64,000 bases of DNA from Candidatus Latescibacterota bacterium (GTDB lineage Bacteria > Latescibacterota > UBA2968 > GCA-2709665). Position numbers and translations under genes: made by a program. The stretch lies in assembly GCA_965203805.1 (NCBI GenBank), contig OZ241917.1, positions 128,001 to 192,000 on the forward strand, written 5' to 3'. The notes beneath the pieces were generated by a model. It saw nothing but the letters and a program-made list of their open reading frames with translations, did not search any database and was not told the origin of the DNA. Shown here in pieces: positions 2,368 through 7,698 of this stretch. Every line of letters starts with the position of its first letter. The stretch's first letter is position 1.

Positions 2368-2391
2368 ATGTTCAGCGTAGTGGTGATTTGA
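2368..2391 (+). CDS. Putative leaderless attenuator peptide MFSVVVI
   Basis: ATG ~8 nt after the -10 box; codons GTA GTG GTG ATT; followed by complementary CCACTAT and a terminator. Confidence 0.55.
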   Translation: MFSVVVI

Positions 2392-2419
2392 GGCATATTG
2401 CAGCCACTATAAAGAAATC

Positions 2420-2493
2420 GCTAAAAAGCTCATGACCGGATCGACGTTTGCGTATTCAGGTTCTCTGGGGCTTTTTAGCTTCAGTTTTTTTTT
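2420..2493 (+). terminator. Attenuator-type intrinsic terminator
   Basis: GCTAAAAAGCTC pairs with GGGCTTTTTAGC, followed by TTCAG and T9. Confidence 0.65.
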
Positions 2494-5995: not shown

Positions 5996-6011
5996 TTTCC
6001 CGGGCCCCGCG

Positions 6012-6041
6012 CCCCTCCTCAAACGGAGGGGTTTTTATTTT
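6012..6041 (+). terminator. Intrinsic terminator after tRNA-Tyr
   Basis: CCCCTCC-TCAAAC-GGAGGGG followed by TTTTTATTTT. Confidence 0.85.
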
Positions 6042-6073
6042 CTGTCGCGCTTATCGGTTTTCTATCCCGTTCC

Positions 6074-6675
6074 TCCTGTCCACCCATGTCAATTGCAGTA
6101 GGTGAAAATGACTGCAAAAGACGCCAAACATGGATACACAGGATAGGCAGGATGAAAAGCAAAATTCGGAAAAAACTAACCTTAATTCGTAAAAAGACAA
6201 CCGAAAAATCGGCCACAAAAAGCACAAAAGACACAAAGGGCACGGCTGCGAAACGGCGTGTAGAGGTCGTCCAAAGGCATGTATTCTCGGTTCACGTCCA
6301 GTGACCTGAAGGTTCCTGAAAATCCGACGTCAAATCGCCTTAATTCACCTGCGTTTATTCGAATTCACGTTCCCTGAGAACCACGAATCACGGCCAAAAC
6401 CTGAGATATCCGTGAAAACCGGTGGGTTTGTTGCCAAATCGGTTGATTATCAATAACATTAGCGGAGAATATATCGAAAACCATGAAGCGTCCGGAATCG
6501 TTTTGGCTCGCGTTATATTGGGTTTCAGGGTGTTCGTTGTGTTGGCGTGCGGTCCTATGGTGAGTCGATTCCCTGCCGTTACTGGTTTCGTCTCGCTTTT
6601 CGTGTTTTTCGTGTGTTTCGTAGTTTCTGATTTTCGTTTTGTCGCGCTTTCCGGTTTTCATCCTGTCCATCCATG
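6074..6675. repeat. Nested inverted array of 9-nt-periodic repeats
   Basis: A: CATGGATAC-ACAGGATAG-GCAGGATGA (6129-6155) with inverse TTTTCATCCTGTCCATCCATG (6655-6675); B: CCACAAAAA-GCACAAAAG-ACACAAAG (6213-6238) with inverse TTTTCGTGTTTTTCGTGTGTTTCGTAG (6597-6623); extra inverse-A unit at 6074-6093. Confidence 0.7.
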
Positions 6676-7460
6676 GTGCGCCGTGAAAAGGCGCGGAACT
6701 CCAGTGGGTGAGAGTCCCACCCGACAAATGTTGCTGCAGTCGGTAGCAACCGGAGCGGGGGTGAAGGTAACGACATCTCCGAAGCCTCCGGTGTAAAGGG
6801 TCGCAAGGCGACTCGGCGAGTATGCGGGCCGAAACGTGCAGTGAACGCTGAGCAGGCCTCGAAAAAGGTAATGCGGGAGCCGACCCGCCCATGGATCGGG
6901 GAAGGCCGCCGTCGTTGGAAAAAGAGAGCAACGCGCGCATCCAACGGTCCCGCCTGCCTGTCCGAGGGACGCAGGCAGGCCGGGGTAATGGCGAAGGCAC
7001 GTATACAAGGAGATCCGACGCAACACGGGAAGCCCCAGCGGTGGTGTATAGACACCAACCGGACGCCCGTGAGGGACAGGTCGGGCCGTATGGGGTGGCG
7101 GACAGGCTCGTAGTACCCGTGAAGCCGGGTAATGCCGGTGGAGGGAAGGGGCCTGACTTCGGATGTGCTTGTGAAGGGGACAACGGTCGGGAGAGTGGCG
7201 CAAGCCTATTACCTCCTCTAAAAGTAGATGAGGCGACTCCAGAGCAAGCTTGGGCTTCAGGTGAAGCTGTCCGGGCAGTGCGGGCAGCGTGTGCCTGAAG
7301 GCGACGTCCGTCGGAGAGCCGGATGCGGGAAAACCGCACGTCCGGTTCGATGAGCGGGATGTGGAAACGGAGCACGGAGCGGCTATTGAGGCACCGCCAG
7401 ACGAAAGGGGCGGAAACAGATAGGCCACTCCTAAACCACCGCGCCACATCTCGACTCTAC
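6676..7460 (+). mobile_element. ORF-less group II intron ribozyme (IIB-like)
   Basis: 5' GTGCG, 3' CTCGACTCTAC; domain V GAGCCGGATGCGGGAAAACCGCACGTCCGGTTC (~7316-7348); EBS1 CATGGA(T) at 6890 complementary to exon (A)TCCATG; domain IV reduced to IEP-like fragments. Confidence 0.93.
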
Positions 7461-7508
7461 TAAATTCCGTTTTGAGAATTGACGGGATGAAGTTTGCGAG
7501 CGCGATTA

Positions 7509-7550
7509 TTGACAAAAATTCTTGACATCCATACCTATATATTATAACTT
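7509..7550 (+). promoter_or_regulatory. AT-rich promoter region for the tRNA-Gly/Thr-rpmG operon
   Basis: Two TTGACA hexamers (7509, 7522) and TATAAC/TAACTT -10-like boxes. Confidence 0.55.
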
Positions 7551-7621
7551 GTTAAGTCTGGAAACTTTCAGGGCCGGCATTCTTGCGTGTACGACCCGCA
7601 GATCGTCGTTTCCTGTTCTGC

Positions 7622-7698
7622 GCGGGAATAGCTCAGTTGGCTAGAGCGTCAGCCTTCCAAGCTGAATGTCGCGGGTTCGAGTCCCGTTTCCCGCTCCA
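7622..7698 (+). tRNA. tRNA-Gly(TCC)
   Basis: GCGGGAA stem, anticodon loop CTTCCAA, GGTTCGAGTCC, CCA. Confidence 0.96.

What the first reader, a model, noticed from the sequence alone, without database searches (positions are those of the whole stretch)
6660..7466. ORF-less group II intron programmed to home into a dispersed repeat family
Seen: EBS1 loop CATGGAT (6890-6896) pairs with exon ATCCATG (6669-6675), and candidate EBS2 GCAGG (6852-6856) pairs with CCTGT (6662-6666). Removing the intron restores repeat unit CATCCTGTCCATCCATG|TAAAT. The same CCTGT-N3-TCCATG|T site occurs unoccupied on the minus strand at 6128-6142 (perfect) and on the plus strand at 6075-6089 (one mismatch). Established: IIB introns choose targets by EBS-IBS pairing and need an IEP for mobility. 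Inference: a non-autonomous retroelement that parasitises the multicopy 9-nt repeat system, gaining many neutral landing sites and borrowing a reverse transcriptase in trans.
Basis: partly seen in the sequence, partly recalled or inferred. Interest (0 to 1): 0.85.

Follow-up and report, generated by a model that had tools for sequence, protein, structure and literature searches.

The report
Orphan ORF-less intron targeting dispersed repeats
A 785-base group II intron with no reverse-transcriptase gene sits in one copy of a short repeat that occurs about 70 times in this genome; it is a known kind of genetic parasite, unusual mainly because the genome holds no helper enzyme for it.

Summary
Window 6676-7460 (+) is a 785-nt ORF-less group II intron: Rfam D1-D4 at 101.8 bits, D5/D6 at 46.9 bits, GUGCG...AC ends, and a bulged A at 7454. 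The loop at 6890-6896 is EBS1. Across about 40 distinct intron/flank combinations from this genome and sister species it tracks the last 7 exon bases: 90% paired in register against 23-39% when slid. I also found EBS3 (A6988 with T7461; 48 of 52 Watson-Crick), which makes the intron IIB-type.

The target is a dispersed intergenic repeat. There are 70-71 empty perfect sites against about 0.1 or fewer expected, and 2 occupied. A sister species has the orthologous site empty. Sister species also carry 1979-nt versions encoding a 456-aa RT/maturase, with the same EBS1, in the same repeat.

This genome has six ORF-less copies, three of them 99.7-100% identical. It has no intron RT, not even a remnant; its only RT is a DRT8 defence type. 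The ORF is replaced by an unrelated conserved cassette of about 150 nt.

Verdict: a non-autonomous retroelement, apparently stranded here. It is a new variant of a known kind. Splicing and mobility were not tested.

The parts
6676..7460 (+). ORF-less group II intron, 785 nt (GUGCG...CUAC), copy A1
   Evidence: Rfam hits. Exact boundaries come from the alignment of six genomic copies and from an empty orthologous site in sister genome G017. A contig in run X3 also joins 6675 to 7461. No ORF with RT similarity lies inside.
6669..6675 (+). IBS1 (ATCCATG), the last 7 nt of the 5' exon
   Evidence: 7 of 7 Watson-Crick pairs with 6890-6896. Covaries with the loop across intron classes.
6890..6896 (+). 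EBS1 (CAUGGAU), in a 9-nt loop closed by CCCG/CGGG
   Evidence: Subfamily B has UGACGA here with exon UCGUCA. A column scan picks intron positions 215, 217, 218, 219 and 221 as the best partners of exon -1, -3, -4, -5 and -7. Pairing is 0.90 in register against 0.23-0.39 slid.
6988..6988 (+). EBS3 (A), which pairs with the first 3'-exon base
   Evidence: Intron position 313 is the best partner of +1. It gives 48 of 52 Watson-Crick pairs (51 with G-U), and all four pair types are seen. Pairing is 0.97 in register against 0.32-0.68 slid.
7461..7461 (+). IBS3 (T), the first base of the 3' exon
6852..6856 (+).
   Evidence: Pairs 5 of 5 with 6662-6666 in this class only. It is invariant (GCAGG or GCAAG) in all 53 copies while the targets differ. 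There is no peak in register.
6862..6873 (+). 12-nt hairpin loop AAAAAGGUAAUG; the family's likely EBS2 (core 6865-6869)
   Evidence: The loop core covaries with exon -14..-10 in other classes: AGGU/ACCU, AGGC/GCCU, CGUU/AACG, CUGC/GCAG. Pairing is 0.67 in register against 0.25-0.54 slid, and 0.74 without this class. Only 3 of 5 positions pair with this copy's exon.
6662..6666 (+). Exon -14..-10 (CCTGT), the position of IBS2; pairing partner unresolved
6702..6839 (+). Domain 1 core matched by Rfam group-II-D1D4-4
   Evidence: 101.8 bits, E = 1.4e-21, whole model matched.
6952..6978 (+). 27-nt palindromic mini-insertion (GCCTGCCTG...CAGGCAGGC type) inside domain 1, specific to the A copies
   Evidence: Absent from the 758-nt G011 copies and from the IEP-encoding introns. 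An X3 contig lacks 27 nt at 6952. The motif has 332 copies in the genome.
7155..7309 (+). Domain 4 cassette of about 150 nt that stands where relatives carry the RT/maturase ORF
   Evidence: No similarity to the 1373-1375-nt ORF segment. Present in 11 of 22 genomes of the family, across 3 genera, at 77-100% identity. In the RNAalifold consensus, 3 pairs change on both sides, 16 on one side, and 15 of 630 cells are non-standard.
7316..7348 (+). Domain 5 (AGC triad, bulge, GAAA loop)
   Evidence: RF00029 alignment and fold.
7352..7457 (+). Domain 6 with an insertion of about 80 nt in its distal part; bulged branch-point A at 7454, 7 nt from the 3' splice site
   Evidence: RF00029 alignment with a large insert, fold and the sequence itself.
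6630..6675 (+). 5' part of the interrupted dispersed repeat (T-rich run, ATCCTGTCC, ATCCATG)
   Evidence: Consensus of 74 sites and matches across the junction.
7461..7480 (+). 3' part of the interrupted repeat (TAAATTCCGTTTTGAGAATT)
6128..6142 (-). Unoccupied perfect target site (CCTGTGTATCCATG|T)
6075..6089 (+). Unoccupied site with one IBS1 mismatch (CCTGTCCACCCATGT)

Best explanation
Window 6676-7460 is a non-autonomous (ORF-less) IIB-type group II intron.

It belongs to a family that lives in this genus. The sister genomes bear NCBI titles 'MAG: Candidatus Latescibacterota bacterium'. Autonomous members of the family are 1979 nt long and encode a 456-aa RT/maturase without an endonuclease domain.

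Inferred mechanism:
1. The intron RNA is spliced out as a lariat through the bulged A at 7454.
2. It binds an RT/maturase supplied by a related intron.
3. It reverse-splices into DNA. The site is chosen mainly by EBS1 (6890-6896) pairing with ATCCATG and by EBS3 (A6988) pairing with the following T.
4. It is then copied into DNA.

Because that 8-nt site is the conserved 3' part of a roughly 60-nt intergenic repeat present about 70 times, the intron has many harmless landing sites.

The copy in the window inserted after this species split from its close relative G017. This genome now holds six ORF-less copies and no intron RT, so the copies are most likely stranded. At best they are splicing-only, unless a helper lies outside the assembly.

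What is shown: intron identity, boundaries, EBS1/IBS1 and EBS3/IBS3 pairing, the repeat census, the empty orthologous site, cognate RT-encoding introns in sister species, and absence of the RT here.

What is inferred: splicing, trans-mobilisation, and loss of the helper.
For: Identity. Rfam D1-D4 and D5/D6 match. The 5' end is GUGCG, domain 5 has the AGC triad, and there is a bulged A 7 nt from the 3' end.

Targeting.
- EBS1/IBS1: own pairs average 6.25 of 7, against 3.39 for cross-class pairings, over 40 distinct combinations. An objective column scan and the slide control agree.
- EBS3/IBS3: 48 of 52 pairs are Watson-Crick.

Mobility footprints.
- Three copies are 99.7-100% identical and have unrelated flanks.
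- One of them (A3) lies outside the repeat and keeps 5 of 7 IBS1 pairs.
- 0 of 13 orthologous tRNA-Tyr/tRNA-Gly spacers in sister species hold the intron. G017 has the empty site ...ATCCATG|TGAGTT... followed by the same downstream sequence.

Target repeat.
- There are 70-71 empty perfect sites and 2 occupied.
- 57 of 74 sites lie outside my crude ORF set, in a genome that is 86% coding.
- The same repeat exists in sister genomes: 93, 38, 22, 9 and 3 sites, with 0 for the control pattern.

Helper.
- Eleven IEP-encoding introns in G016 and G011 carry the same EBS1 loop, and all 11 lie in the repeat.
- The IEP matches RVT_1 and GIIM, and TIGR04416 at 356.8 bits (cut-off 300).

Parallel case. Subfamily B (87-90% identical) has a compensating EBS1 and sits in a second dispersed repeat.
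Against: - No IEP in this genome. PF08388 gives none. PF00078 and TIGR04416 hit only a DRT8-type RT. The cognate IEP gives no match in the genome search, and its best tblastn E-value is 1.1. Yet three copies are almost identical and share a derived 27-nt insertion, which argues for spread within this lineage. Complete loss of the helper without any remnant is therefore an assumption.
- The ORF-less form is not a simple deletion derivative. Its domain 4 is unrelated to the ORF segment.
- EBS2/IBS2 is weak for this target: 3 of 5 positions pair with the covarying loop.
- No evidence of transcription or splicing. The intron lies between an intrinsic terminator-like site (6011-6032) and the next tRNA genes. 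The only exon-exon joint seen comes from a relative about 93% identical, and it may simply be an empty DNA site.
- Occupancy is low, 2 of about 73 sites.
Confidence: 0.75

Rival explanations
1. The intron is still mobile because a helper RT/maturase exists in the same organism but outside the single assembled contig, for example on a plasmid, an integrative element or a strain variant.
For: Three copies are 99.7-100% identical. Runs X1 and X2 hold pieces identical to the window. They also hold contigs that follow the intron up to 7154 and then continue with other sequence beginning TGGTTC..., which resembles the start of the IEP segment of sister introns.
Against: Those contigs differ from the known IEP segments. 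They come from mixed communities, so they may belong to other species. The genome is one contig scored 99.81% complete. No IEP fragment of any kind lies in it.
Confidence: 0.12
2. The ORF-less intron moves without its own kind of RT. Either the ribozyme reverse-splices into DNA on its own, as reported for a IIB1 ribozyme in vitro and in the spirit of the ORF-less IIC 'HYER' ribozymes, or it uses an unrelated RT such as the resident DRT8-type enzyme or a repair polymerase for copying.
For: - The genome holds multiple near-identical copies and no trace of an IEP.
- 5 of the 11 family genomes that carry the domain 4 cassette have no TIGR04416 match over the cut-off; three of them are single-contig genomes.
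- The conserved, apparently structured domain 4 cassette and the enlarged domain 6 could stand in for maturase functions.
- Literature passages report protein-free reverse splicing into DNA, and ORF-less IIC introns that cleave DNA.
Against: - Nothing here tests catalysis.
- In the genomes where ORF-less copies are most numerous (G011 17, G010 8), IEP-encoding relatives are also present.
- The orphan genome G001 holds mostly fragments.
- DRT8 is a defence RT with no known link to introns, and it lies 32 kb from the nearest copy.
- No RT step is known for HYERs.
Confidence: 0.08
3. The copies spread at the DNA level, by recombination or gene conversion between repeat copies, not by reverse splicing.
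For: Two of the three A copies lie in members of one repeat family, which share about 60 nt of homology around the site. The ribozyme tree interleaves ORF-less and IEP forms, so recombination between intron copies does occur.
Against: - Copy A3 and two G011 copies lie at non-repeat sites that share only the IBS1-like bases.
- Insertion is exact to the base at the EBS1/EBS3-defined junction in every copy.
- EBS1 and the target covary across classes.
Confidence: 0.03

Closest known systems
Thermosynechococcus elongatus TeI3/TeI4 intron family (Mohr et al. 2010, PMC2882425; passages read)
   Same: - ORF-less and RT-encoding IIB introns proliferate side by side.
- Families are defined by diverged EBS sequences that retarget them.
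[quoted passage not shown]
- ORF-less copies are mobilised by 'driver' IEPs in trans.
   Different: - There, all 17 ORF-less introns share one deletion with visible ORF remnants. Here the ORF is replaced by an unrelated conserved cassette of about 150 nt, and ORF-less and IEP forms interleave on the ribozyme tree.
- There, the IEPs are in the same genome. Here there are none.
- Here the IEP has no endonuclease domain.
- Here the target is a short non-coding intergenic repeat.
RmInt1 of Sinorhizobium meliloti, homing into ISRm2011-2 (PMC1802570 and PMC8914252; search listing and starts of abstracts only)
   Same: A IIB-type intron whose IEP lacks the DNA-binding and endonuclease domains and which homes into a multicopy element of the genome.
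   Different: RmInt1 is autonomous and its target is an insertion sequence. That the intron here inserts at replication forks, as RmInt1 does, is only an inference. GC skew was too weak to test strand bias.
ORF-less class IIC introns / HYER ribozymes (known to me from passages in bioRxiv 10.1101/2024.08.31.610620, and from recall of Liu et al. 2024, which I did not read)
   Same: ORF-less group II introns present in several copies in genomes without an IEP.
   Different: HYERs are IIC, with short target recognition. This intron has a 7-nt EBS1, EBS3, a 33-nt domain 5 and an EBS2-type loop, so it is IIB-like. DNA cleavage was not tested.
C.te.I1 of Clostridium tetani (Zimmerly and Semper 2015, PMC4424553; passages read)
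   Same: A bacterial ORF-less intron in a genome without any IEP gene. The review calls this the sole known exception to the rule that ORF-less introns live beside related IEPs.
   Different: C.te.I1 is a single intron inside a gene and splices robustly. Here there are six intergenic copies, in dispersed repeats or in a decayed gene remnant, and their splicing is untested.
Group II introns beside REP elements in Pseudomonas putida KT2440 (Tobes and Pareja 2006, PMC1525189; one table row seen)
   Same: Association of a group II intron with short extragenic repeats (2 of 9 copies there).
   Different: There the association is a minority pattern with no EBS-based rationale given. Here 16 of 19 copies of the class are in the repeat and the site is explained by EBS1/EBS3.

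Membership tests
Group II intron (ribozyme) | Conserved 5' GUGYG and 3' AY ends | tested here: met
   GUGCG at 6676-6680 and ...UAC at 7458-7460.
Group II intron (ribozyme) | Domain 5 helix with AGC triad, 2-nt bulge and GNRA loop | tested here: met
   RF00029 at 46.9 bits (cut-off 40). The alignment shows GAGCCGGAUGCGG-GAAA-ACCGCACGUCCGGUUC.
Group II intron (ribozyme) | Domain 6 with a bulged branch-point A 7-8 nt from the 3' splice site | tested here: met
   A7454 is bulged in the basal helix GAGCGGG.../...CUCG-A-CUC. Domain 6 carries an unusual distal insertion of about 80 nt.
Group II intron (ribozyme) | Domain 1 architecture | tested here: met
   RF02003 group-II-D1D4-4 at 101.8 bits, whole model matched.
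Group II intron (ribozyme) | Self-splicing or lariat formation | not testable with these tools
   The only exon-exon joint (6675 to 7461) comes from a relative and may be an empty DNA site.
Subgroup IIB (as against IIA and IIC) | EBS1-IBS1 pairing of about 6-7 bp from a domain 1 terminal loop | tested here: met
   7 of 7 pairs here, and covariation across classes.
Subgroup IIB (as against IIA and IIC) | EBS3-IBS3: a domain 1 base away from EBS1 pairs with the first 3'-exon base (in IIA it is delta, next to EBS1) | tested here: met
   Intron position 313 (window 6988), 92 nt 3' of EBS1, gives 48 of 52 Watson-Crick pairs with all four pair types.
Subgroup IIB (as against IIA and IIC) | EBS2-IBS2 pairing | tested here: inconclusive
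The family-wide signal lies at loop 6862-6873 (0.67 in register against 0.25-0.54 slid), but only 3 of 5 positions pair with this target.
Mobile (autonomous) group II intron | RT/maturase ORF in domain 4 | tested here: not met
   No RT-like ORF in 6676-7460. Domain 4 is a 155-nt non-coding cassette.
Non-autonomous ORF-less intron mobilised in trans (TeI3 type) | Closely related IEP-encoding intron in the same genome | tested here: not met
   None in this genome. Present in sister species G016, G011 and G010, with ribozyme parts 96-97% identical to this copy.
Non-autonomous ORF-less intron mobilised in trans (TeI3 type) | [quoted passage not shown] | tested here: met
   A1 and A2 pair 7 of 7, A3 5 of 7, B1 and B2 6 of 7.
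Non-autonomous ORF-less intron mobilised in trans (TeI3 type) | ORF-less form derived by deletion, with ORF remnants | tested here: not met
   No similarity between the cassette and the ORF segment; the best short BLAST match is 10 nt.
Non-autonomous ORF-less intron mobilised in trans (TeI3 type) | Mobilisation by a trans IEP shown by experiment | not testable with these tools
   Needs a two-plasmid mobility assay.
HYER (ORF-less IIC hydrolytic ribozyme) | Class IIC ribozyme architecture with short exon recognition | tested here: not met
   7-nt EBS1, an EBS2-type loop, a 33-nt domain 5, and targets that are not hairpin-adjacent. The definition is taken from passages.
HYER (ORF-less IIC hydrolytic ribozyme) | Multiple copies in a genome lacking an IEP | tested here: met
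   Six full-length copies and no IEP.
HYER (ORF-less IIC hydrolytic ribozyme) | Sequence-specific hydrolytic DNA cleavage | not testable with these tools
   A biochemical assay is needed.

The most novel reading that the evidence does not exclude
This is a IIB-type counterpart of the IEP-less IIC 'HYER' phenomenon. [quoted passage not shown] It would do so by protein-free reverse splicing or with a borrowed, unrelated polymerase, using 8 nt or more of programmable recognition.
Probability: 0.1. Interest if true: 0.8.

Novelty: new variant of a known kind. Interest (0 to 1): 0.5.

Why it matters
The finding is a clean natural example of how a selfish ribozyme stays harmless. It aims at a short intergenic repeat with 70-90 copies per genome. 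It retargets by changing a 7-nt loop, and a sister subfamily aims at a second repeat.

It also documents three things in an uncultured, host-associated lineage:
- ORF-less introns that are not deletion derivatives but carry a conserved replacement cassette shared across three genera.
- Modular exchange between ORF-less and RT-encoding backbones.
- Several complete genomes that keep ORF-less copies with no intron RT. A 2015 review described that situation as nearly unknown in bacteria (passages). It has since been linked, for IIC introns, to protein-free DNA-cutting ribozymes (passages).

If these copies prove active without a cognate RT, they would offer a ribozyme with longer programmable recognition than the IIC forms. 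If they prove inert, they give a dated snapshot of retroelement extinction after loss of the helper.

Tried and rejected
1. It pairs with this target, but it is invariant in 53 of 53 parsed copies (GCAGG or GCAAG) and shows no register peak. I rejected it as the family's EBS2 and left it open as a class-specific contact.

2. ORF remnants in domain 4. Global and short-word alignments found none.

3. A helper RT in this genome. I tried PF08388, PF00078, TIGR04416, the cognate IEP through the genome search, and my own tblastn at E up to 10. The only RT is DRT8-like (PADLOC 530.7 bits).

4. RNA evidence for splicing.
   - I laid one stretch on 4 of the 24 listed runs.
   - The single 6675-to-7461 joint is in an RNA-library contig. 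That contig differs at 14 positions and one gap over the 210 laid bases (7461-7671), so it comes from a relative.
   - It therefore shows an empty or spliced site in a relative, not splicing here.
   - Parts without cover, and the depth figures, were not used as evidence.

5. Replication-strand bias expected for an endonuclease-less IEP. Cumulative GC skew is weak and asymmetric (minimum at 4.43 Mb, maximum at 0.82 Mb), so I did not use it.

6. A promoter or terminator role for the repeat. With a crude ORF set, the downstream neighbour is on the same strand at 33 sites and on the opposite strand at 24. There is no clear orientation rule.

7. The whole-intron minimum-free-energy fold. I used it only for domains 5 and 6. 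Domain 1 of a group II intron is not reliably predicted that way.

8. Whether any A copy interrupts a gene in sense. No open frame longer than 133 codons spans any junction. A3 lies antisense to what looks like a short gene remnant; that resemblance is my reading, not a search.

9. Rows dropped.
   - Of the 54 regions fetched, my anchor patterns parsed 49. L069, L070, L071, L078 and L079 were dropped.
   - The loop pattern then failed for G000_B3 (EBS1 hairpin deleted) and L082.
   - L082, L116 and G000_B3 were left out of the column scans, and L082 and L116 out of the tree.

10. Literature.
    - Searches for group II introns in Latescibacter* found 2 papers, both incidental.
    - Searches for non-autonomous introns with intergenic repeats and for REP elements found no description of this system.
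    - Simon et al. 2008 (PMC2525955) is not held.
    - Supplementary files were not consulted. Those of Mohr 2010 and Miura 2022 may list comparable ORF-less or orphan cases.

Full report
**What is there**

Window 6676-7460 (+) is a group II intron of 785 nt.
- Rfam's group-II-D1D4-4 model matches 6702-6839 over its whole length (101.8 bits, cut-off 49).
- The D5/D6 model matches 7314-7460 (46.9 bits, cut-off 40), with a large insert in domain 6.
- The intron starts GUGCG and ends UAC.
- Domain 5 (7316-7348) has the AGC triad and a GAAA loop.
- The basal helix of domain 6 leaves A7454 bulged, 7 nt from the 3' splice site.
- No open frame inside resembles a reverse transcriptase.
- The intron lies between tRNA-Tyr, which is followed by a terminator-like hairpin at 6011-6032, and tRNA-Gly.

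**Copies in the genome**

The window is G000:C1:128001-192000, in a genome of one 5.87-Mb contig. BLAST finds six full-length copies.
- Subfamily A: the window copy A1, A2 at 5585699 and A3 at 5624622. A2 and A3 are identical, and each differs from A1 at 2 of 785 positions.
- Subfamily B: three copies, 87-90% identical to A1, at 1339595 (-), 1647542 and 689606. The last has lost the EBS1 hairpin.
- Four short 5' fragments also exist.

All flanks differ, so these are separate insertions.

**Exon-binding sites**

*Data set.* I fetched 54 further copies from sister genomes and could parse 49 of them. L069-L071, L078 and L079 were dropped.

- In subfamily A the 9-nt loop reads CCCAUGGAU and the exon ends AUCCAUG. 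In B the loop reads UCUGACGAU and the exon ends UUCGUCA.
- Over 40 distinct loop/exon combinations, own pairs average 6.25 of 7, against 3.39 for loops matched to other classes' exons.
- A blind scan of all variable intron columns picks positions 215, 217, 218, 219 and 221 (window 6890-6896) as the best partners of exon -1, -3, -4, -5 and -7.
- Pairing is 0.90 in register and 0.23-0.39 when slid.

*EBS3.* The same scan for the first 3'-exon base picks intron position 313 (A6988). It gives 48 of 52 Watson-Crick pairs with all four pair types, and 0.97 in register. This is an EBS3-IBS3 pair, which places the intron with IIB rather than IIA.

- GCAGG is invariant (GCAGG or GCAAG) while the targets differ, and it shows no register peak (0.53 against 0.31-0.54 slid).
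- The 12-nt loop at 6862-6873 covaries with exon -14..-10 in other classes (AGGU/ACCU, AGGC/GCCU, CGUU/AACG, CUGC/GCAG). It peaks in register at 0.67, or 0.74 without this class.
- With this copy's exon, that loop forms only 3 of 5 pairs.
- This class therefore seems to rely on EBS1 and EBS3.

**The target**

- The joined flanks restore a repeat.
- The conserved core, judged from 74 sites, runs from about -45 to +15. It consists of a T-rich stretch, one to three ATCCTGTNN units, ATCCATG, then TAAGTTC.
- CCTGTNNATCCATGT occurs 71 times against 0.11 expected. Two further sites are occupied.
- 57 of 74 sites fall outside my crude ORF set, in a genome that is 86% coding. There is no clear orientation relative to neighbouring genes.
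- Sister genomes have 93, 38, 22, 9 and 3 perfect sites, with 0 for the reversed control pattern.
- Of 19 parsed copies with the CAUGGAU loop (3 in this genome, 9 in G011, 7 in G016), 16 are in the repeat. A3, L065 and L066 are elsewhere and keep 5-7 of 7 IBS1 pairs.
- Subfamily B sits in a second dispersed repeat, AACCTTGATTCGTCA|TTATTCGGGGACGTTAATTCGAATATGTGCAAGTG. It has 29 sites with the 13-nt core, 2 of them occupied.

**Empty site**

- The tRNA-Tyr/tRNA-Gly spacer was found in 13 of the 14 sister genomes of the genus. None holds the intron.
- In G017, the spacer has the repeat with ...ATCCTGTTTATCCATG|TGAGTTCTGG... followed by the same GAAGTTTGCGAGCGCGATTATTGACAAAAATTCTTGACATCC as the window.
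- The insertion is therefore exact, and it is younger than the split from G017.
- A contig of an RNA-library run (X3) also joins 6675 to 7461. It comes from a relative about 93% identical and could be an empty DNA site.

**The helper**

*In sister species.* These genomes bear NCBI titles 'MAG: Candidatus Latescibacterota bacterium'.
- They carry 1979-nt introns whose ribozyme parts are 96-97% identical to A1.
- Their domain 4 encodes a 456-aa protein with RVT_1 and GIIM domains. It matches TIGR04416 at 356.8 bits (cut-off 300), has no endonuclease domain, and its closest solved relative is GsI-IIC RT.
- Eleven of them (7 in G016, 4 in G011) have the CAUGGAU loop, and all 11 are in the repeat.

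*In this genome.*
- There is no GIIM match.
- The only RVT_1 and TIGR04416 match is a 522-aa protein that PADLOC calls Drt8, at 530.7 bits.
- The cognate IEP finds nothing, and its best tblastn E-value is 1.1.

**The ORF-less form is not a deletion product**

- Its domain 4 (7155-7309) has no similarity to the 1373-1375-nt ORF segment.
- The cassette is conserved at 77-100% identity in 11 of 22 genomes of the family, across three genera.
- It shows some compensatory change in a consensus fold: 3 pairs change on both sides and 16 on one side.
- A maximum-likelihood tree of the ribozyme parts interleaves ORF-less and IEP forms. It needs 3 changes of label, at least 2 of them forced by well-supported branches. 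Domain 4 modules have therefore been exchanged between backbones.
- Of the 11 cassette-bearing genomes, 5 have no TIGR04416 match over the cut-off: G000, G001, G006, G008 and G021. Three of these are single contigs.

**Reading**

The most economical account is a non-autonomous IIB-type retroelement. It retrohomed, with an IEP of its own family, into a harmless multicopy repeat. In this genome it has outlived its helper.

The awkward fact is that the three A copies are nearly identical. They also share a 27-nt palindromic insertion (6952-6978) that is absent from G011, so they spread within this lineage. Yet no IEP remnant remains. Two rivals stay open: a helper outside the assembly, or RT-independent or heterologous mobility.

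**Comparison with what is known**

- The T. elongatus family shows ORF-less and IEP introns diverging into EBS-defined families, with trans mobilisation. There, the ORF-less forms share one deletion with remnants, and the IEPs are co-resident (passages).
- RmInt1 homes into a multicopy IS element (abstracts).
- A 2015 review states that bacterial ORF-less introns nearly always lie beside related IEPs, with C.te.I1 as the sole exception (passages).
- A 2022 survey counted 888 of 13,041 bacterial group II introns without an IEP (passages).
- ORF-less IIC 'HYER' ribozymes are described as DNA-cleaving (passages).
- My searches found no description of group II introns in Latescibacterota, or of homing into short intergenic repeats. 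The nearest is a table row giving 2 of 9 intron copies next to REPs in P. putida.

I therefore rate this a new variant of a known kind, of moderate interest.

Noticed in passing
window 6952-6978; genome-wide in G000: A small palindromic element (CCTGCCTG, 4-30 nt, CAGGCAGG) has 332 copies in the genome. It is present or absent at different places in different intron copies (A: 27 nt; B: 33 nt elsewhere; B3, L081, L101 and L082 in domain 1). It also splits some copies of the target repeat between ATCCTG and TCC. It looks like a mobile mini-hairpin.
   Followed up: partly
G000:C1, e.g. 2238765, 3860056, 573863; related motif at window 6176-6190: A second dispersed repeat, AACCTTGATTCGTCA|TTATTCGGGGACGTTAATTCGAATATGTGCAAGTG. 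There are 41 sites with the first 12 nt and 29 with the 13-nt core. It is the target of intron subfamily B, and its upstream flanks are unique right up to TAACC.
   Followed up: partly
window 5996-7621: The tRNA-Tyr/tRNA-Gly spacer is 844 nt here without the intron, and 733 nt in G017. In the other 12 sister species it is 174-447 nt. The extra length is an accumulation of the dispersed repeats.
   Followed up: partly
G000:C1:5766000-5774000: At least 15 perfect target sites lie within about 8 kb, on both strands. This is a dense array of the repeat far from the window.
   Followed up: no
G000:C1:1678993-1680561 (-), locus L014 733-2301: The only reverse transcriptase in the genome: 522 aa, PADLOC Drt8 at 530.7 bits over nearly its full length.
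   Followed up: partly
window 2370-2445 (+): An Rfam SAM_alpha riboswitch match (48.9 bits, cut-off 36). The family is described for Alphaproteobacteria, but the sister genomes here are labelled Latescibacterota.
   Followed up: no
loci L098, L099, L100 (G010): Two IEP-encoding introns have an EBS1 loop (UUUUGGA) that does not match their own exon (UUCGAUU). A third copy's loop (AAUCGAA) matches that exon exactly. This hints at loop exchange or recent retargeting between copies.
   Followed up: no
window 6590-6650 and other repeat copies: Upstream of the 9-nt units, many repeat copies carry one to three 11-nt units (TTTCTCGTGCC-like). Because that period is not a multiple of three, a coding role for the repeat is unlikely.
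   Followed up: no
window 7352-7457: Domain 6 carries a distal insertion of about 80 nt, shared by the ORF-less and IEP-encoding members. I did not establish which described intron class has this feature.
   Followed up: no
runs X1, X2 and X16 laid on window 7154/7310: Contigs in community samples follow the intron to 7154 and then continue with other sequence. One has 1376 nt between 7154 and 7310. RT-encoding relatives are therefore present in the same kinds of sample.
   Followed up: partly
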